A DNA stretch of 64,000 nt, taken from assembly GCA_050294475.1 (NCBI GenBank), contig JBNKOE010000005.1, forward strand, positions 11,176 through 75,175. The letters run 5' to 3'. Shown here piece by piece: positions 8,579-64,000 of the stretch. The stretch is from Algibacter sp. Lineage in GTDB: Bacteria; Bacteroidota; Bacteroidia; Flavobacteriales; Flavobacteriaceae. How positions within the stretch are numbered: position 1 is the first letter of the stretch; every line of letters begins with the position of its first letter. The notes under the pieces are model-generated. The model saw only the letters and a list, made by a program, of their open reading frames with translations. It was not told where the DNA came from and did not search any database. Both the position numbers and the translations under genes were made by a program.

Positions 8579-8623
8579 ATAAACTTGATTTTGTAAAAAT
8601 TTTCTACTACCTTCGTTTAACAT
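8308..8623 (+). repeat. Direct repeat copy 2 (duplicated ppk2 3' end)
   Basis: About 98% identical to 5762-6077. Confidence 0.95.
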
Positions 8624-8625
8624 CA

Positions 8626-8662
8626 GATATAAAACATTAAAACAATTTCATATCAAGTTGTT
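8626..8662 (+). other. Degenerate attI-like / secondary insertion site
   Basis: ACAATT-TC-ATATCAAGTTG|TT resembles ACAATT-GTCT-ATATCCAATTG|TT at 63762-63784. Confidence 0.55.
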
Positions 8663-9293
8663 GTAACACATTTAACCAAACCAAGAAACTTAATATTTAT
8701 GAAGAAAATTTTACCAATCATTATTGTCGGAATTATAACTGGAGCAATCGGATTTTTTGCTGGAAAAACAGTTGGATATGACGAAGCTGAAAGAATGCAA
8801 AGTTATCGAAGTGTCGAATCTATTAAATCGGACTTAAAACAACGTGAAACTAAAATGATTTCGACTCTATTAAACGGAACTGCACGAATTGAAACGCGAA
8901 ATGAAGGCGGACTTTTTAGCAGTAAAAAATCGAAATATCTGACTGGTAAAATTCTAAACAACGCTTTAGTTGCGAAAGCAAAAGATGTGAAAGTAATTGT
9001 GACATTTTTATCCAAAACAAAATCGGAAATTGGAAAAGCGGAATTTACTATTTACGAATATATTGAACCTGGAAAGTCGCAATCTTTTGAGAAGAAAGTA
9101 AATGTCTCTCAAGATGTGGCTGAATTTAGCTGGAATATTGTAGATGCAAAAGCGGAATAAAAACGTGTTACAACAATGTATAAAAATAATTGCGGTTTAG
9201 TTCTTAATCAAAGGTAGTTACGTGTTTGATACGTCTGAATTTCCTTCGGAAATTCCTCGCACGCAAACCCGCAACTATTCTTATACGAGACCG
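8661..9293 (+). mobile_element. Solo integron-like gene cassette
   Basis: Starts G|TTGTAACAC (8660-8669), the exact reverse complement of GTGTTACAAC (9165-9174) after its stop codon; ends at G9293|TT. Confidence 0.85.
8699..9160 (+). CDS. Cassette-borne hypothetical membrane-anchored protein (C-terminal Ig-like/FxLYD-like domain possible)
   Basis: N-terminal TM segment; GKILNN..AKDVKVIVTF..YEYIEPGKSQSF pattern. Confidence 0.75.
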   Translation: MKKILPIIIVGIITGAIGFFAGKTVGYDEAERMQSYRSVESIKSDLKQRETKMISTLLNGTARIETRNEGGLFSSKKSKYLTGKILNNALVAKAKDVKVIVTFLSKTKSEIGKAEFTIYEYIEPGKSQSFEKKVNVSQDVAEFSWNIVDAKAE

Positions 9294-9300
9294 TTAAACG
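9165..9300 (+). repeat. attC-like site A
   Basis: TTACAAC-AAT-GTATAAAAATAATTGCGG ... CCGCAACTATTCTTATAC-GAGACC-GTTAAAC; 18-bp stem with 2 mismatches; R' fits GTTRRRY. Confidence 0.85.
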
Positions 9301-9303
9301 AAC

Positions 9304-10002
9304 CTAATAAAATTCAGCCTCAAAAAGCACACTAAAATGTTTCAATAACTTTTCTTTAACCTCAGCTTCATCAACCCTTTGTTGCCCTAACTCTACATTT
9401 AAAGAAGTAACGGCTTTACCACGAATACCACAAGGTATAATATTATCAAAATAACCTAAATCGGCATTTACGTTAAGCGCAAAACCATGCATAGTTACCC
9501 AACGGCTAGCTCGTACACCCATAGCACAAATTTTACGAGCAAATGGTGTACCAACATCTAACCAAACACCTGTTTCACCTGAGCTTCTTTCAGCTTTTAA
9601 ACCATATTCGGCAAGCGTAAGAATAATCATTTCTTCAAGTAAGCGTAAGTATTTATGTATATCGGTAAAAAAGTTTTCTAAATCTAAAATTGGATATCCT
9701 ACAATTTGCCCAGGACCATGATAGGTTATATCGCCTCCCCTATTAATTTTGTAAAAAGTAGCTCCTTTTTCGACAAGTTGTTGCTCGTTTAAAAGCAAAT
9801 TAGATAAATCGCCACTTTTACCCAAAGTGTAAACATGAGGATGCTCTACAAATAAAAAATAATTATTAGTCTTTAAATTAGTATTGTCTTTTCTGTTTTT
9901 AATTTTGGCATCAACAATACCTTTAAACAACTGCTCTTGGTATTCCCAAGTTTGTTTGTAATCATTAAAACCTAAATCTTGCAGTTTAATTTGCTTATTC
10001 AT
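9304..10002 (-). CDS. lipB: Lipoyl(octanoyl) transferase
   Basis: [46 protein letters not shown]. Confidence 0.96.
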
Positions 10003-37843: not shown

Positions 37844-37945
37844 ATAAAAAATAATGACTCTAATTCAGATTTAAGCAATTATGTTAATTTTAAGAATGAA
37901 AAAGAACCAACCACTATTAATTTAGGAATTGGAATTGAATTATAA
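37844..37945 (+). pseudogene. 3' remnant of a cassette ORF
   Basis: Startless frame ...DLSNYVNFKNEKEPTTINLGIGIEL* ending 1 nt before attC-like site B. Confidence 0.45.
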
Positions 37946-37946
37946 C

Positions 37947-38080
37947 GTATGCTAACACAGTATCAAAAATCGCTAATTTTATCCTAAACCAATGTTAGTA
38001 GCTTTGCTTGCTTACGATTTTACTTCGAAAAATACTCGCACACAAACCCGCACTATTCTTATACAATCACGTTGCATGTA
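37947..38080 (+). repeat. attC-like site B (left arm decayed)
   Basis: TGCTAAC-ACA-GTAT... ; right part TACTTCGAAAAATACTCGCACACAAACCCGCACTATTCTTATAC-AATCAC-GTT closely matches site A. Confidence 0.8.
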
Positions 38081-38101
38081 ATTTGAACAAATTAAATATA
38101 A

Positions 38102-39064
38102 ATGAAAAAATTAAATCTGATTTTATTGGTGTTAATCCCAATATTAAGTTTCGGACAAACTGAAAAAGAAACTAACAAAAAGATTTCTGCTGAATTTGAA
38201 AAACACTTCAATTCAGATGAATATCAAAAGATTTTTGACTTGTTTTCGCCTGAAATGAAAAGTGCCTTACCAATTGAACAAACGACTGACTTTTTAAAAG
38301 GACTGAAAAGTCAGACAGGAAAAATTAAAAAAAGGGAATTTATAAAATATGAGCAGACTTATGCCTCTTATAAGACAATCTTTGAACGAACTATTTTTGC
38401 AGTAAATATATCACTTGACAATAATGCAGAAATCAATGGTCTTTTTGTAAAACCTTTTAAAGAAGATAATCTTCCCAAACTTGAAAGAAATAAAACGAAA
38501 CTGGTTTTGCCGTTTAATAGTGAGTGGACAGTAATTTGGGGCGGAGACACTAAAGAATTAAACTATCACGTAGAAAGCGAAGCTCAAAAAAACGCATTCG
38601 ATATTGTAATTACAGACAAAAACGGAAAAACCTTTAAAACAGACGGAAAAACAAACGAAGATTATTATGCTTTTGGAAAAGAATTTATTGCACCTTGTGA
38701 TGCAGAAGTGGTTTTAGCGGTTGACGGAATAAAAGACAACACACCTGGAGAATTAAATCCTATTTACATTCCAGGAAATACTGTAATTTTAAAAACAGAA
38801 AATGACGAATATTTATTCTTTGCTCATTTCAAACAAAATTCGATTGTCGTAAAACAAGGACAAAAAATAAAACAAGGAGAATTATTAGGGCTTTGTGGAA
38901 ATTCCGGAAATTCTTCAGAAGCTCATTTACATTTCCACATTCAAAATGTGGAAGATATAAACAAAGCGACTGGAGTAAAATGTTATTTTGACGAAATAAT
39001 TGTGAATGGAGAATTGAAAAAAGACTATTCGCCAATAAAAGGAGAAGAAATTAAAAACAAATAA
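38102..39064 (+). CDS. Cassette 1: exported M23 peptidase with N-terminal DUF3887-like domain
   Basis: Signal peptide; AFDIV, FAHFKQ, GNSGNSSEAHLHFH. Confidence 0.85.
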   Translation: MKKLNLILLVLIPILSFGQTEKETNKKISAEFEKHFNSDEYQKIFDLFSPEMKSALPIEQTTDFLKGLKSQTGKIKKREFIKYEQTYASYKTIFERTIFAVNISLDNNAEINGLFVKPFKEDNLPKLERNKTKLVLPFNSEWTVIWGGDTKELNYHVESEAQKNAFDIVITDKNGKTFKTDGKTNEDYYAFGKEFIAPCDAEVVLAVDGIKDNTPGELNPIYIPGNTVILKTENDEYLFFAHFKQNSIVVKQGQKIKQGELLGLCGNSGNSSEAHLHFHIQNVEDINKATGVKCYFDEIIVNGELKKDYSPIKGEEIKNK

Positions 39065-39068
39065 AAAC

Positions 39069-39207
39069 TACTGGCAGCAATGGTTATAAGTAATTGCCTG
39101 TTCTCGCCTACTTCTAAAAATACTCGCAGATTTTTAGCTTAGGTGTGTACTTGCAGAGTTAAGTGCTAGACTACGCAACTACTCATAGCCAAACCATTGG
39201 CGTTAAT
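39069..39207 (+). repeat. attC-like site C (both cores mutated)
   Basis: CTGGCAGC-AAT-GGTTATAAGTAATTGC ... GCAACTACTCATAGCC-AAACC-ATTGGCGTTA; AAC changed to AGC and GTT to ATT. Confidence 0.8.
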
Positions 39208-39242
39208 TTTGGAAACAAACTGCAAAATTGAAAACACATAAG

Positions 39243-40343
39243 ATGAAATATTCATTACTAATAATTATCTTGATTAATACAATATTGAGCTATAGTCAAG
39301 AGATAACCATAGAAAAAATAAAATTAACTGAAACAGTTGATAATCGTTATGTTTCTGAAATCCCTAAAGTAAAAGACTTAACCAATAATAAAAATCCTAT
39401 TGTAGAGAAAATTAATTCTCAGATTCTTGATCGTTTTATGATTAATAGCTTTAATCAAAATGAATTAGAAGAATTTAGATGGTACGAAGTTGAATGTTCA
39501 TTTGAGATAAAAGAGAATATTCTTTATATATCATTTGCAGGAGAGTACTATGGAGCATATCCAAATTATGTTGAAGATGAATTTTATTTTGATTTAAAAA
39601 ATGGGGAGCCTCTAAAATTATCCATTATTCCTTTTCAAGCGTTATTCACATTATCTGGATATCTAGATTTTCTTAACAAATATTGGCTTAAAGGAGTTAA
39701 AAAGAAATTTATAGCTGCTATCGAGTGTGCGGAATTTGAGCCTTACTGTAGTTACTATGACATTTATAATTACAGTGTAAAAGATAATAAATTCTCGATT
39801 TCGCTATCAAATGACTGTTATCCTCACGTAGCTCAGGCATGTTCTCCTTATTATGAAATATCTGTAGAACTTGATACTCTTAAACAATACATAAATGAAC
39901 TTGGAAAATATATCCTTTTAGAAAGCAATTATTTATCAGAAACTCCAATTGAAAAGTTTTTAGAAAATGAGAAATTGAAGAAAGAAACAGAAAACAATTT
40001 ATTCATCTTTGGGAAGATTGACGATAAATATCCTTTTAGTATGGCAATAAATATAGATAATCAAGGAGTAATATCTGGTTACTATTATTATGATTTAAAA
40101 CTTCAAAAACTGGTATTGAAAGGACAAAAAAAAGATAATACTATGCTATTAACCGAGACAATTAACAATAAACAAACTGGATTCTTCGAGCTAAATATTA
40201 GCAATACATACAACTCGGAAAGTTTCTTTTTATATGACTCTAACGGAAATGATAAATACTTGATTGGAAAATGGCTGAATTCTGATAAAACGAAGATTCT
40301 TGACATTAAATTTTCAGAAGTAAAAACAAATGATAAAAACTAA
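39243..40343 (+). CDS. Cassette 2: exported hypothetical protein (RsiV/DUF3298-like region possible)
   Basis: Signal peptide; INSQIL...YISFAGEYYGAYP..FYFDLKNG; stop codon overlaps the core TAACGCCAAC. Confidence 0.7.
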   Translation: MKYSLLIIILINTILSYSQEITIEKIKLTETVDNRYVSEIPKVKDLTNNKNPIVEKINSQILDRFMINSFNQNELEEFRWYEVECSFEIKENILYISFAGEYYGAYPNYVEDEFYFDLKNGEPLKLSIIPFQALFTLSGYLDFLNKYWLKGVKKKFIAAIECAEFEPYCSYYDIYNYSVKDNKFSISLSNDCYPHVAQACSPYYEISVELDTLKQYINELGKYILLESNYLSETPIEKFLENEKLKKETENNLFIFGKIDDKYPFSMAINIDNQGVISGYYYYDLKLQKLVLKGQKKDNTMLLTETINNKQTGFFELNISNTYNSESFFLYDSNGNDKYLIGKWLNSDKTKILDIKFSEVKTNDKN

Positions 40344-40455
40344 CGCCAACACTTAGATGTAGTGCATTCGGGTTCTAGCGGCTTGCGAGCGTTTGTAGCT
40401 CGTAAAAAAAGTAGATATAAACTGATTCGCTAAAAAATTAGATTTACTATAACCC
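40341..40455 (+). repeat. attC-like site D, left part only
   Basis: TAACGCCAAC is the reverse complement of the cassette 2 start (G/A)TTGGCGTTA; no right arm or GTT before the next ORF. Confidence 0.6.
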
Positions 40456-40471
40456 TTAAGACTATATAGAA

Positions 40472-41053
40472 ATGCAAAATGAAATTAAATTAACAACAAA
40501 AAAGATTAAAACGGCACAAAAAATAGGTAATGTCTTTTTTGCCATTATACTTATTTTAAATGTCTGGATTATGATTAAACCTTTAATCGTTAATTTTGAT
40601 CTAAGGGATATTGGGGTGTTTAAGCTTCTTAGAAATAATGAGACATATGTAGTACTTGGTGCATTTGTAATATTACTTGGCGTTCGGTTTTTAGTTATTA
40701 ATTTTCTTGCTATATCAGGAGCTAAAATTATAGGAGATAATATAATTATACAAAAACAATTCAAGCCTGATAAGGCTTACTTGTTTAATCAGATAGTTTC
40801 TATTAATTCTATTGGGTATAGAAATGTGCGATTTTTTAAATTATCGATACAAGACAACAATAAAATTAATGAGTGTTTAATATTTAGCACATATTGTTTG
40901 CCAGAATTTGAAAATAAAAATGTAGAACAGGTTTTGATTAGTTTACAAAAAACAGATAGCAGAAATAAAAATAGTAGTATTGAATTACTCAAAAACATAG
41001 ACATAATAAACATATTTTTAGAATTCAAAAAGAGGTTTTCTTTTAGAAAATGA
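40472..41053 (+). CDS. Cassette 3: hypothetical membrane protein
   Basis: Two TM segments; 193-aa ORF between hairpin sites. Confidence 0.65.
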   Translation: MQNEIKLTTKKIKTAQKIGNVFFAIILILNVWIMIKPLIVNFDLRDIGVFKLLRNNETYVVLGAFVILLGVRFLVINFLAISGAKIIGDNIIIQKQFKPDKAYLFNQIVSINSIGYRNVRFFKLSIQDNNKINECLIFSTYCLPEFENKNVEQVLISLQKTDSRNKNSSIELLKNIDIINIFLEFKKRFSFRK

Positions 41054-41145
41054 TTTAAACCCGAATAATTTGTATGTAAGATGTTTACAATTAAGAAATA
41101 TTGAAAACATATAAGTCTTTCATTTCAACATATCGGAATAACAAC

Positions 41146-41282
41146 AAATCGCTAAGTGCTCATAAATAATATGGCAGCCAGTGGTTTGCGAAGGACTGTT
41201 CTTTTGATTATGTTTGATTCAAATTTGGATAGAAGTTTGGTAAAGTGCCAAACTATTCATAGCACAAAACGTTAGGCTCCAT
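41146..41282 (+). repeat. attC-like site E
   Basis: TCGCTAAG-TGCTCATAAATAATATGGC ... GCCAAACTATTCATAGCA-CAAAAC-GTTAGGC; R' fits GTTRRRY; left core damaged. Confidence 0.72.
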
Positions 41283-41313
41283 GCTAAGAGTCGTACACAT
41301 TGATTAAAAATAT

Positions 41314-61570: not shown

Positions 61571-62971
61571 TTAAATTTTAAAATATTCCTTAGCGTTAAA
61601 ATAACTAATATCAGAAACCATTTTACCTATCCATTCCATATCATTTGGTAATTCACCTCTTTTTATTTCATCTCCTAAAAGATTACAAAGAATACGTCTA
61701 AAATATTCATGTCTTGGGAATGACAAGAAACTTCTAGAATCTGTTAACATACCAATAAAACAGCTAATTAAACCCATATTTGAAAGCGCATTTAATTGTT
61801 TTATCATACCGTCTTTTTGATCTAAGAACCACCAACCTGAACCAAACTGAACTTTACCTTTTACACTACCGTCGTTAAAATTACCAATCATGGTAGCCAT
61901 AACTTCATTATCGGCAGGATTTAAGTTATAAATAATGGTTTTTGTTAATTTATCTTTGCTATCTAGCGCATTTAAAAATGCAGATAATTTTTGTGCTTGT
62001 GGATAATCGCCTATAGAATCCCATCCTGTATCAGGACCTAAAACATCTAACATTCTTTTGTTATTATTTCTTAAAGCCCCTAAATGATATTGTTGTACCC
62101 ATCCGTATTCATGATACGTTTCTGCTAAAAATAATAAAATAGCACTTTGGAATTTTAAGACTTCTTCTAATGTAATATTTTGATTTTCTCTTTTCTTTTT
62201 GAAAATTGATTTCACTTCAGCTTCTGTGAATTTTTCAAAATAAATTTGGTCTAAACCATGATCGCAAACGCTACATCCGTTTTTATCAAAAAAGTCTATT
62301 CTACTTTTTAATGCATCACATAATTCATCATATGTATTAATAGATGTTCCTACAACACTTGCTAAAGAATCTACATAATTGTTATAACCTTCATTAGAAA
62401 TCAAAATGGCTTTATCTGGTCTAAATGAAGTTCCTACTTTAATATCTATGTTATTTTTAATAATCTGTTGATGATATTCTAAAGTATCAGTAGGGTCTTC
62501 AGTAGTACAAACATATTCTGCATTAACTTTGCGAAGCAAATTTTGAGTACTGTACTCTTTAGTGTTAACTTTAGCTGATACTTCTTCATAAATTTTCTCT
62601 GCAGATTTTTCATTTAACAAATCATACACATCAAAATAACGAGCTAACTCTAAATGTGTCCAATGATATAAAGGATTACGCATTGTGTAAGGTACCGTTT
62701 TTGCCCAATTTAAAAACTTATCCTTATCAGAAGCTTCACCAGTAATAAAATTTTCATTAATACCCAAAGTACGCATGGCACGCCATTTGTAATGATCACC
62801 ATTTATCCATACTTGTGTAATATTGTCGAATATTTTATCCTCTGAAATTAACTGTGGTGACAAATGATTATGATAATCTATAATTGGCTGATTTTTAGAA
62901 TAATTATGATATAACTCTTCAGCGTATTTGTTTTCTAAAAGAAAATTGTCGGTAATAAAATTTTTGCTCAT
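61571..62971 (-). CDS. uxaC: Uronate isomerase
   Basis: IIDYHNHL, GDHYKWRAMR, NPLYHWTHLEL, GSGWWF, TDSRSFLS..RHEYFRR. Confidence 0.96.
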   Translation of the reverse strand: MSKNFITDNFLLENKYAEELYHNYSKNQPIIDYHNHLSPQLISEDKIFDNITQVWINGDHYKWRAMRTLGINENFITGEASDKDKFLNWAKTVPYTMRNPLYHWTHLELARYFDVYDLLNEKSAEKIYEEVSAKVNTKEYSTQNLLRKVNAEYVCTTEDPTDTLEYHQQIIKNNIDIKVGTSFRPDKAILISNEGYNNYVDSLASVVGTSINTYDELCDALKSRIDFFDKNGCSVCDHGLDQIYFEKFTEAEVKSIFKKKRENQNITLEEVLKFQSAILLFLAETYHEYGWVQQYHLGALRNNNKRMLDVLGPDTGWDSIGDYPQAQKLSAFLNALDSKDKLTKTIIYNLNPADNEVMATMIGNFNDGSVKGKVQFGSGWWFLDQKDGMIKQLNALSNMGLISCFIGMLTDSRSFLSFPRHEYFRRILCNLLGDEIKRGELPNDMEWIGKMVSDISYFNAKEYFKI

Positions 62972-63035
62972 TTTAAGCTTATTATCTTTAATTTATTTTT
63001 GTGGTTTATCTAAAATATTTGACAGAAACTATAAA

Positions 63036-63051
63036 TTGTAATCGATTACAA
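63036..63051. promoter_or_regulatory. Candidate LacI-family operator upstream of uxaC
   Basis: Perfect 16-bp palindrome TTGTAATCGATTACAA, fits TGnAAnCGnTTnCA. Confidence 0.72.
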
Positions 63052-63449
63052 AAAAGAAAGGAGTATATTAAAAAGCACATATCTTTTCTAAGATTTAATC
63101 TTGTAAGTTTTCAATTTTGAAACATTTTAAACCGAGTAAATATATATAATATAAATGCATAAGCAAAGTGGATAACAAAAAAAAAGCGATATTTCTATCC
63201 TACCAATTTAATTTGAAATTTCCAGTTTTTAACCCATTACCTGTAACTGGTAATTTAATAGTTCCTATTTCATTTAAAGGTTAAACTATCACATAAATAT
63301 TGTAGACAGAACACATCATGCCATAGTTGAAACTGAGTGTTTTTTAACAAGATATTTATTGTTTAACTATTTAAATTTCATTTTCTAATTTACTCTACCA
63401 CCTTCAAATTTTTTCACTACGTGGAATTATCCAATGACCCTGTGTATAA

Positions 63450-63740
63450 AATCACAAAGAATACTGTCCCAACAAATATCTATTTGAAGGACAAAAAGGA
63501 AACAAATATAGTGTTACAAGTGTTTTAAATATTATTTCTACAGCAGCTAAAAAAGCTGGAATTTATAAAAAAGTAACACCACACATGCTAAGGCATAGTT
63601 TTGCGACACACCTATTAGAAAACGGAACAGATATTAGGCATATACAAATATTACTAGGACATAGTTCTACTAAAACGACAGAAATTTACACACATGTAGC
63701 AAATAAATCGTTTATGGAAATAAAAGATTTACTATCTTAG
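63450..63740 (+). pseudogene. 5'-truncated tyrosine recombinase (integron-like integrase)
   Basis: Manual translation [19 protein letters not shown]...[42 protein letters not shown]; in-frame TAA at 63447; absent from the ORF track. Confidence 0.9.
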
Positions 63741-63752
63741 TTTTTTATAATG

Positions 63753-63793
63753 TGGATATAGACAATTGTCTATATCCAATTGTTGCCAGTAAT
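63753..63793 (+). other. Candidate attI-like recombination site
   Basis: Perfect 26-bp palindrome TGGATATAGACAATTGTCTATATCCA, then ATTG|TTGCCAGTAAT; G at 63782, 42 nt after the integrase stop. Confidence 0.65.
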
Positions 63794-63807
63794 GTAAACC
63801 AATCTTC

Positions 63808-64000
63808 ATGCTGAAAGGATTATTTAAGAAAAAAACACCTGTAGAAAAGTTTATGGCTCATTTGGATAGAATTTTCCAAACCGAACCTGAATATTACAAA
63901 GAAGAATCAGAAACGGATGGAATTGCTGGAGTTACAAGCATAGTTTATAAAGATATTCCTGAAAAAGGAATGATAACTGGAATTACATACGGACTTTCAC
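63808..64000 (+). CDS. First-cassette ORF, partial; SUFU-like (suppressor-of-fused domain) protein possible
   Basis: MLKGLFKKKTPVEKFMAHLDRIF...YKDIPEKGMITGITYGLS runs off the window; the TYGLS motif suggests SUFU. Confidence 0.55.
   Translation, partial: MLKGLFKKKTPVEKFMAHLDRIFQTEPEYYKEESETDGIAGVTSIVYKDIPEKGMITGITYGLS

What the first reader, a model, noticed from the sequence alone, without database searches (positions are those of the whole stretch)
63753..63810. Perfect 26-bp palindrome abutting a G|TT core: a new type of attI?
TGGATATAGACAATTGTCTATATCCA ends 3 nt before G63782|TTGCCAGTAAT, and an ATG follows at 63808. Classical attI sites are not long perfect palindromes. There is no T run after it, so it is not an obvious terminator. 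The cassette model predicts a core close to ...TACTGGCAAC just after the stop codon of the ORF beyond the window.
Basis: partly seen in the sequence, partly recalled or inferred. Interest (0 to 1): 0.78.

Follow-up and report, generated by a model that had tools for sequence, protein, structure and literature searches.

The report
Palindromic cassette-insertion site, integron-like system
The 26-bp palindrome marks the docking site where mobile gene cassettes are inserted next to a (here broken) Xer-type recombinase gene, part of an integron-like gene-capture system that is widespread in marine Flavobacteriaceae but does not use a classical integron integrase.

Summary
It lies 12 nt after the stop codon of a 5'-truncated tyrosine-recombinase gene and 3 nt before G63782-TT.

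- Beside 64 homologous Flavobacteriaceae recombinase genes, a palindrome sits at the same place. More than 20 different arm sequences keep the dyad symmetry.
- All homology between loci stops at the GTT.
- Downstream lie arrays of co-oriented ORFs separated by ~150-nt hairpin sites (N6*-AAC ... GTT-N6). Each cassette's 5' GTT-N6 is the exact reverse complement of its own 3' N6*-AAC in 42 of 61 cassettes, against 1 of 86 within one site.
- The window's first cassette, a SUFU-family immunity-like gene, occurs in four contexts, all joined at GTTGCCAGTAATG.
- In one of them the predicted TACTGGCAAC lies 13 nt after the stop codon.
- Same-strain contigs branch at 63785 and break at 64431.

It is not a classical integron. 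The recombinase is Xer-like, lacks the IntI insertion, carries an extra N-terminal domain, and is co-directional with the cassettes. The closest described system is rAID-1 of Bacteroidales. How the palindrome acts, as a dimer-binding site or as an extruded hairpin, is inferred and not shown.

The parts
63357..63449 (+). Multi-copy leader upstream of the recombinase remnant. It includes CCAATGACC and an attC-L''-like GTGTATAA. Function unknown.
   Evidence: Logan contigs of the same strain break at 63386. An 85-nt unitig covering 63357-63441 has 2.3x depth. Other copies join different flanks at 63349 and 63423. L030 has the same CCAATGACC before a 91-aa C-terminal-only ORF.
63450..63740 (+). 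3' remnant (96 codons plus stop) of a Xer-like tyrosine recombinase gene. It keeps HxxR, the LLGH histidine and the catalytic Tyr, but lacks about 279 N-terminal codons, including the first Arg and the Lys. It is inactive on its own.
   Evidence: Translation. PF00589 E = 7e-25 and XerA/XerD-type NCBIfam hits. DNA homology to full-length genes starts at about 63448-63456. Full-length relatives are 375 aa.
63753..63778 (.). Perfect 26-bp palindrome (13-nt arms): the dyad element of the attI-type site.
   Evidence: Position and dyad symmetry are conserved beside homologous recombinase genes, with more than 20 distinct arm sequences. Assembly contigs break on it, ending at 63751 or starting at 63756.
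63779..63784 (+). Spacer ATT plus invariant GTT core. Strand exchange takes place within or immediately 5' of GTT.
   Evidence: Homology between recombinase loci ends here. The same cassette is joined here in four contexts. A 32-nt unitig covering 63756-63785 at 2x extra depth branches at 63785/6.
63785..63793 (+). Cassette-specific N6 (GCCAGT) plus AAT: the R' half that pairs with the cassette's own R'' (ACTGGC-AAC) in the circular form.
   Evidence: Chain rule. L086 shows ACTACTGGCAAC after the homologous ORF. L009 has a second cassette with the same pair, GTTGCCAGTAAT ... CTACTGGCAAC.
63782..64000 (+). First gene cassette, cut by the window end. The ORF starts at 63808 and encodes a SUFU-family (PF05076) immunity-like protein. 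By homology it is 192 aa, with the cassette's 3' site expected at about 64395-64410.
   Evidence: Translation. Homologues in L084, L085 and L086. PF05076 E = 3.5e-10 on the L086 protein. The same-strain 676-nt contig spans 63756-64431 and then breaks.

Best explanation
The palindrome is the attI-type (primary) recombination site of an integron-like gene-cassette platform.

The platform's recombinase is a Xer-like tyrosine recombinase of about 375 aa. It has an extra ~100-aa N-terminal domain and no IntI insertion.

In intact relatives the recombinase gene ends 10-17 nt before a dyad-symmetric element, and 3-6 nt after that element comes an invariant GTT. Circular cassettes carry a ~150-nt hairpin-forming site of the form R''(N6*-AAC) - L'' ... 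L' - R'(GTT-N6). They are inserted by strand exchange in, or just 5' of, the GTT. After insertion the cassette's own TT-N6 follows the attI, and its N6*-AAC hairpin half follows its ORF.

The dyad most likely positions recombinase subunits next to the cleavage point. It could do this as a duplex site for two inverted monomers, or as an extruded hairpin that mimics the L-box stem of the cassette sites.

In this window the platform is a relic. The recombinase gene is cut down to its last 96 codons, so any further recombination would need a full-length paralogue acting in trans. The resident first cassette encodes a SUFU-family immunity-like protein.

Shown: the site anatomy, its conservation, the junction position and the cassette logic. 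Inferred: recombinase binding to the dyad, the strand or strands used, and current activity.
For: - Conservation. A palindrome occupies the same position beside 64 homologous genes. Inner arms differ but stay complementary (GAC/GTC, GTT/AAC, CGT/ACG, GATCAT/ATGATC, CACAC/GTGTG and others). 77% of loci beat the 99th percentile of shuffles.
- Homology boundary. All sequence homology between loci stops at GTT.
- Arrays. Co-oriented ORFs are separated by conserved sites. L051 has at least 13.
- Cassette logic. The 5' GTT-N6 is the exact reverse complement of the same cassette's 3' N6*-AAC in 42 of 61 cassettes, with 45 distinct N6. The figure is 1 of 86 within one array site and 2.3% for random pairs. 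The attI N6 matches the first cassette's R'' in 36 of 54 loci, against 0.7%.
- Folding. The circular-form site folds with a 10-16-bp R-box stem at -26.5 and -30.5 kcal/mol. The array form folds at -19.7 kcal/mol without that stem.
- Cassette mobility. The window's cassette is found after an attI (window), after attC-like sites (L086, L085) and in L084. It always starts at GTTGCCAGTAATG. L086 has TACTGGCAAC 13 nt after the stop.
- Same-strain contigs. The attI right arm plus GTTG is present at about 3x depth and branches at 63785. The cassette contig ends at 64431, where the repeated L'' motif is expected.
- A footprint inside the window. At 8613-9299 a solitary cassette splits a mini hairpin site whose halves, TCGTTTAAC and GTTAAACGA, are exact complements.
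Against: - No experiment or read-level evidence shows recombination at this particular site.
- The local recombinase gene is truncated.
- Sequence beyond 64000 of the source genome was not available, so the cassette's own 3' site is inferred from L086 and from a contig break.
- In L084 the homologous cassette's 3' site reads ATTGCC-AAC, only 4 of 6 complementary.
- Similarity between the attI right arm and the attC L' element is weak: 10.1 versus 8.7 of 22 positions in shuffles.
- Covariation of the inner arms fits a structural hairpin as well as, or better than, a sequence-specific dimer site. The way the dyad is used therefore remains open.
Confidence: 0.8

Rival explanations
1. The palindrome acts mainly at the RNA or transcription level. 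It would be a stem-loop that ends or stabilises the recombinase mRNA, or insulates the cassettes from read-through. Its closeness to the cassette junction would then be incidental. This need not exclude a recombination role.
For: It lies 12 nt after the stop codon. The inner arms covary while their sequence is free, as expected for a structure rather than a recognition sequence. The hairpin is stable relative to shuffles.
Against: There is no T run and no terminator-like hit. The stems are A+T-rich. The distance to the GTT crossover is held at 3-6 nt across genera, and the outer arms are sequence-conserved. A similar dyad occurs in the mini site at 8625-8662, with no gene end before it that would need termination there.
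Confidence: 0.12
2. The palindrome is a dif-like chromosome-dimer resolution site lying next to its dedicated single Xer recombinase, as in XerS/difSL or XerH/difH.
For: The best NCBIfam match of the full-length protein is the XerA model (233.6 bits, cut-off 220). In single-Xer systems the site lies next to the gene (general knowledge).
Against: - Several copies occur per genome: L018/L021, L032/L039, and about 3x attI depth in the window strain.
- The gene here and in L019, L020 and L030 is broken.
- Sequence diverges completely at GTT and cassette arrays follow.
- No skew switch is visible in the window.
Confidence: 0.03
3. The site is the attL or attR end of an integrative element whose integrase gene sits at its edge. 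What follows the GTT would be ordinary host chromosome that differs between species.
For: Integrase genes often lie at element ends, and sequences diverge right after the site.
Against: - What follows are repeated attC-like sites and cassettes obeying the complementarity rule.
- The same cassette is found behind three other, different sites.
- The upstream side in relatives is housekeeping DNA, such as mutS and tRNA genes.
Confidence: 0.03
4. The palindrome is a chance feature of A+T-rich intergenic DNA.
For: The window is about 30% G+C.
Against: None of 100 shuffles gave a match. The fold z-score is -4.1. The feature is conserved across more than 60 loci.
Confidence: 0.01

Closest known systems
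rAID-1 (recombinase-associated acquired interbacterial defence) clusters of Bacteroidales (Ross et al. 2019, bioRxiv 10.1101/471110; PMC12247911)
   Same: A XerD-like tyrosine recombinase gene sits at the 5' end and is followed by co-directional short genes. [quoted passage not shown] Cassettes include polymorphic-toxin immunity families, here SUFU and Imm33-like.
   Different: rAID-1 is defined only in Bacteroidales, by at least 44% identity to BF9343_RS08045. Close homologues are reported to be restricted to that order. Here the hosts are Flavobacteriaceae, and many cassettes are not recognisable immunity genes: LRR, peptidases, DUFs and proteins with no Pfam match. The texts I could read do not describe the palindromic attI, the GTT crossover or the N6 complementarity rule.
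Integrons (IntI, attI, attC; G|TT crossover)
   Same: A primary site next to the recombinase gene receives cassettes. The cassette sites are imperfect palindromes of the form R''...AAC / GTT...R' with inner L''/L' pairing. The first bases of each cassette pair with its own inverse core, which places the crossover at GTT.
   Different: The recombinase lacks the IntI-specific insertion: 30 aa where VchIntIA has 73. It scores 196 bits against a TIGR02249 cut-off of 265, and it has an extra N-terminal domain. The gene and the cassettes are co-directional, with the attI after the stop codon. The attI is a long, perfect or near-perfect palindrome. The R box carries a hypervariable 6-nt cassette-specific part. 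IntegronFinder surveys report almost no integrons in Bacteroidetes.
Single-recombinase Xer/dif systems (archaeal XerA, XerS/difSL, XerH/difH)
   Same: The recombinase core is most similar to XerA and XerD. The site is dyad-symmetric and lies beside the gene.
   Different: The system is multi-copy, is followed by cassette arrays, and the exchange point lies outside the dyad. The genes often decay.
pdif modules of Acinetobacter plasmids (from my own knowledge)
   Same: Discrete gene modules are bounded by inverted Xer-type sites and are thought to move by Xer-family recombination.
   Different: pdif modules use the host XerC/XerD and 28-bp dif-like sites. They have no dedicated platform, no hairpin sites of ~150 nt and no attI.

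Membership tests
Integron | Integrase of the IntI clade carrying the IntI-specific additional domain | tested here: not met
   The alignment to VchIntIA (2a3v) splits in two, leaving 30 query residues opposite 73 IntI residues. TIGR02249 gives 196 bits, below the cut-off of 265. The best match is the XerA model.
Integron | attC-type cassette sites: imperfect inverted repeats R''(..AAC)-L''...L'-R'(GTT..) | tested here: met
   Sites of about 150 nt were found in relatives and in the window. The hairpin fold has R and L stems. The IntegronFinder attC model itself was not run.
Integron | Crossover at G|TT, so that a cassette's first bases complement its own inverse core | tested here: met
   42 of 61 cassettes and 36 of 54 attI sites are perfect over N6. 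Four contexts of one cassette are joined at GTT. The resolution is the GTT triplet, not the single bond.
Integron | attI beside intI, with intI transcribed divergently from the cassettes and a Pc promoter | tested here: not met
   The site lies after the stop codon, and the gene and cassettes are co-directional. No promoter was identified.
Integron | attC recombined as a folded single (bottom) strand | not testable with these tools
   Only folding energies and covariation are available.
rAID-1 | 5' XerD-like recombinase at least 44% identical to B. fragilis BF9343_RS08045 | not tested
   The reference sequence could not be obtained with the tools. The criterion is quoted. The gene in the window is truncated.
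rAID-1 | Two or more co-directional downstream genes with repetitive intergenic motifs | tested here: inconclusive
   Met in relatives. In the window only the first cassette start is visible before position 64000.
rAID-1 | Cassettes are orphan immunity genes | tested here: inconclusive
   SUFU (the window cassette) and Imm33-like are present, but most cassettes have no Pfam match or belong to other families.
rAID-1 | Host in the order Bacteroidales | tested here: not met
   Nearly all related loci are from Flavobacteriaceae or other non-Bacteroidales Bacteroidota, with one Syntrophaceae-labelled and one Melioribacteraceae MAG; none is from Bacteroidales.
Xer/dif dimer-resolution site | One site per chromosome at the terminus, with two arms around a 6-8-bp central region where exchange occurs | tested here: not met
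   The site is multi-copy. The exchange point lies 3-6 nt outside the dyad.
Intrinsic terminator | G+C-rich stem followed by a T run | tested here: not met
   No terminator-like sites were found in 62900-64000. The stem is A+T-rich.

The most novel reading that the evidence does not exclude
Marine Flavobacteriaceae carry a second kind of integron. A Xer-type recombinase without the IntI structure-recognition domain captures circular cassettes through folded hairpin sites whose R box is cassette-specific (N6). Its attI is itself a hairpin-forming 'mini-attC', that is, a perfect L-box palindrome beside the GTT. Both partners may therefore be recognised as folded DNA. The extra N-terminal domain would supply the structure recognition that IntI gets from its insertion.
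Probability: 0.4. Interest if true: 0.85.

Novelty: new variant of a known kind. Interest (0 to 1): 0.72.

Why it matters
Integrons are the textbook gene-capture machine, and they are thought to depend on the IntI-specific domain. IntegronFinder surveys find them nearly absent from Bacteroidetes.

This analysis shows the same cassette logic operating around a different, Xer-like recombinase family. The shared logic comprises a primary site, hairpin cassette sites, a GTT crossover and self-complementary cassette ends. The family has thousands of members in marine Flavobacteriaceae.

The analysis gives nucleotide-level, testable rules for the sites. As far as I could read, the rAID-1 literature notes only 'integron-like repeats'.

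It also explains why draft assemblies of these bacteria so often break right after this gene, so cassette arrays are probably under-counted.

If the dyad and the N-terminal domain turn out to replace IntI's structure recognition, this would be a case of convergent or anciently diverged evolution of single-strand, structure-guided recombination. It would also be a possible new tool for cassette shuffling.

Tried and rejected
- Reading past 64000.
  - The uxaC look-up gave contigs that end inside or just upstream of the recombinase remnant.
  - The protein search with the 64-aa ORF start found only two truncated homologues.
  - The gap was closed only indirectly, through L086 and the contig break at 64431.
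- L084's cassette 3' site does not match the prediction (4 of 6). I treat L084 as a decayed or variant array, not as a refutation, because L086 matches 10 of 10.
- Rfam has no family on the repeats; only tRNAs were found.
- The viral-contig scan found only generic Xer-like genes lacking the N-terminal domain.
- The N-terminal domain has no Pfam match. Its model has pLDDT 69, and the best Foldseek PDB hit has E = 0.17 (the XPB damage-recognition domain), which is not significant.
- Homology of the attI right arm to attC L' is only weakly above shuffles, so I keep it as an idea only.
- My first regex-based chain test missed sites (17 of 26). I redid it with nhmmer-defined sites.
- Membership in rAID-1 by identity to the B. 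fragilis recombinase could not be tested.

Full report
**Observation**

The 26-nt sequence TGGATATAGACAATTGTCTATATCCA lies at 63753-63778. It is a perfect palindrome with 13-nt arms and no spacer.
- It is unique in the window even with three mismatches allowed, and none of 100 shuffles gave a match.
- As single-stranded DNA it forms an 11-bp stem with a 4-nt loop at -8.7 kcal/mol (z = -4.1).
- ATT separates it from G63782-T-T, GCCAGTAAT follows, and an ATG lies at 63808.
- No terminator-like site was found.
- Upstream, frame 1 from 63450 to 63737 encodes the last 96 residues of a tyrosine recombinase, followed by the stop codon at 63738-63740 (PF00589, E = 7e-25).
- DNA homology to full-length genes begins abruptly at about 63448-63456. 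The gene here is therefore a dead 3' remnant.

**Relatives**

A scan of one genome per species with the 96-aa remnant found 481 relatives. The best 80 were kept; nearly all are from Flavobacteriaceae or other Bacteroidota, and they are 65-92% identical to the remnant.
- In nearly all of them a palindrome sits 10-17 nt after the stop codon.
- In 64 aligned sites the best dyad score exceeds the 99th percentile of shuffled controls in 77% of cases.
- The outer arms are sequence-conserved ((G)GATATA...TATATC(C)).
- The inner arms differ between lineages but remain complementary, giving more than 20 distinct palindromes.
- The dyad is followed by 3-6 nt (AATT or CTAC types) and an invariant GTT.
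- From the GTT onward the loci share nothing except the pattern GTT-N6-(A/C)AT.
- Many contigs, including those of isolates, end 43-210 nt after the stop codon. This points to repeated or variable DNA downstream.

**What lies downstream**

Where sequence continues, there are arrays of co-oriented ORFs separated by a conserved site of about 150 nt. Its form is AAAAC(T/G)-N6*-AAC-A(A/C)N-G(T/G)(G/C)TATAA(T/G)TAAT..., then a variable middle with small hairpins, then ...CATA(C/G)(A/C)C-N4-6-GTT-N6-(A/C)AT. L051 has at least 13 such sites in 10 kb.

The decisive regularity concerns the N6.
- The N6 after the GTT of one site is the exact reverse complement of the N6* before the AAC of the next site. 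In other words, each cassette's 5' end complements its own 3' site.
- This holds perfectly in 42 of 61 cassettes with both ends detected, and three more match 5 of 6. There are 45 different N6.
- Within a single array site the two N6 match perfectly in only 1 of 86 cases.
- Random pairs match perfectly 2.3% of the time.
- The N6 after the attI GTT obeys the same rule with the first cassette in 36 of 54 loci, against 0.7% for permuted controls.
- When a site is rebuilt in its circular-cassette form it folds into a long hairpin with a 10-16-bp R-box stem, at -26.5 kcal/mol (top strand) and -30.5 kcal/mol (bottom strand). The array form folds at -19.7 kcal/mol and lacks that stem.

This is the logic that located the integron crossover at G|TT. 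Here it places the exchange in, or just 5' of, the GTT.

**The window's own cassette**

The ORF at 63808 belongs to the SUFU family (PF05076), a family used as immunity proteins in polymorphic toxin systems (Zhang et al. 2012, PMC3482391).

The same cassette was found in three other places, and in all four contexts the common sequence begins at GTTGCCAGTAATG:

| Context | Sequence just 5' of the GTT |
|---|---|
| Window | ...CTATATCCAATT (the palindrome) |
| L086 | ...GGTTATACGAGACC (an attC-like site) |
| L085 | ...CATATACAAATC (an attC-like site) |
| L084 | ...GATATAACGA |

- In L086 the 192-aa ORF is followed, 13 nt after its stop, by AAAAACACTACTGGCAACAATGGCTATAA.
- L084's 3' site differs (ATTGCC-AAC, 4 of 6), and I regard that array as decayed or variant.
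- Transferred to window coordinates, the R'' should lie at about 64399-64407.
- A contig from a run holding the identical strain spans 63756-64431 and then breaks, as expected where the repeated L'' motif begins.
- In the same data the contigs break on the palindrome.
- A 32-nt unitig covering 63756-63785 carries twice the baseline depth in addition to the window's own path. The attI right arm plus GTTG is therefore present about three times, and it branches at 63785/6 into different continuations.
- The recombinase 3' region reaches up to about 12-fold depth.
- One paralogue continues upstream as a full-length gene; its loose end reads ..SILKDLQKY.
- These runs are communities, so I cannot prove that the paralogues lie in the same genome.

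**The recombinase**

Full-length relatives are about 375 aa.
- They contain a SAM-like core-binding domain and a catalytic domain most similar to XerA and XerD (NF040815, 233.6 bits against a cut-off of 220).
- The integron-integrase model scores below its cut-off (196 versus 265).
- Against VchIntIA (2a3v) the alignment splits and leaves 30 residues opposite 73, so the IntI-specific insertion is absent.
- An extra N-terminal domain of about 100 aa has a beta-beta-alpha-beta-beta-alpha-beta arrangement (pLDDT about 70-80). It has no Pfam match and no significant structural neighbour.
- The family has at least 7481 members at E <= 1e-30 in the protein collection. NCBI labels them 'site-specific tyrosine recombinase/integron integrase'.

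**Mechanism proposed**

Shown:
- the anatomy of the site;
- its conservation beside homologous recombinase genes;
- the junction at the GTT;
- cassette mobility between attI and attC contexts;
- the self-complementary ends of each cassette.

Inferred:
- the recombinase binds the dyad and cleaves at the adjacent GTT;
- cassettes move as circles whose site folds;
- the dyad works either as a duplex site for two inverted subunits or as an extruded hairpin resembling the L-box stem of the cassette sites.

The free but complementary inner arms favour a structural role. So does a mini hairpin site elsewhere in the window (8613-8668) that has the same layout plus an R'' partner.

At this locus the system is a relic and could act only with a recombinase supplied in trans.

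**Rival explanations**

- An RNA stem-loop or terminator role cannot be excluded, but it lacks a T run and does not explain the fixed spacing to the GTT.
- A dif-like site is contradicted by the multi-copy state, the decayed genes and the arrays.
- The end of an integrative element is contradicted by the cassette logic and by the four contexts of one cassette.

**Comparison with known systems**

The system works like an integron, but it fails the integron's defining protein feature and its gene orientation.

The closest described system is rAID-1 of Bacteroidales. [quoted passage not shown]

IntegronFinder surveys report almost no integrons in Bacteroidetes. My literature searches found no description of these flavobacterial arrays or of the site rules.

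I rate this a new variant of a known kind.

**Verdict**

Interest is 0.72. Confidence is 0.8 that this is an attI-type cassette insertion site. It is lower, about even, for any particular mode of action of the dyad.

Noticed in passing
window 8613-9299: A solitary cassette (ORF 8699-9160) is inserted into a mini hairpin site. The upstream half reads TCGTTTAAC-ATC-AGATATAAAA..TTTCATATC-AAGTT-GTT|GTAACA. The cassette's own site at 9160-9296 ends GAGACC-GTT-AAACGA. GTTAAACGA is the exact reverse complement of TCGTTTAAC at 8613, and GTAACA is the reverse complement of the cassette's R'' TGTTAC. This is an insertion footprint within the window. No recombinase gene lies nearby, and a PPK2-like ORF lies upstream.
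   Followed up: partly
window 37944-41285: This looks like a fossil cassette array without a recombinase. There are attC-like sites at 37944-38090 (degenerate) and 39064-39214 (cores mutated, AAC>AGC and GTT>ATT). The R'' N6 of the latter, ACTGGC, happens to be the complement of 63785-63790. A 3' half-site lies at 41251-41285. The genes between the sites include an M23 peptidase/DUF3887 protein.
   Followed up: partly
window 63349-63522; L030 9990-10282: The truncated recombinase module is itself multi-copy in the runs that hold this strain. Other copies join different flanks at 63349 and 63423, and a full-length paralogue joins at 63454. L030 has an intact 91-aa C-terminal-only ORF that starts in the same 9-mer, CCAATGACC. 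Whether short C-terminal recombinase fragments are made on purpose is unexplained.
   Followed up: partly
L006 10286-10360; L007 10286-10360: The attI carries a partial tandem duplication: a left arm plus centre (GTGGATATAGACAATTGT), then about 11 nt, then a complete palindrome.
   Followed up: no
L004-L083 (contig ends): In many draft genomes and MAGs the contig ends 43-210 nt after this recombinase gene, and metagenome contigs carrying it are mostly 1-3 kb. The arrays are therefore systematically lost or split in short-read assemblies.
   Followed up: partly
L051 8457-8652; L030 about 9800-9875: tRNA genes lie directly upstream of the recombinase gene in some genomes, whereas in L020 it follows mutS. 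The platform's chromosomal position is not conserved.
   Followed up: no
L004 about 11840, L009 about 14600, L017 about 10360: Three arrays share a cassette whose ORF starts ...IFEITKMDCPSEE (heavy-metal-associated-like by eye). This suggests cassette sharing across genera. It was not checked with a profile search.
   Followed up: no
proteins P0003-P0122: NCBI annotates this family as 'site-specific tyrosine recombinase/integron integrase' through the archaeal XerA model, although the IntI-specific insertion is absent. The name could mislead integron surveys.
   Followed up: partly
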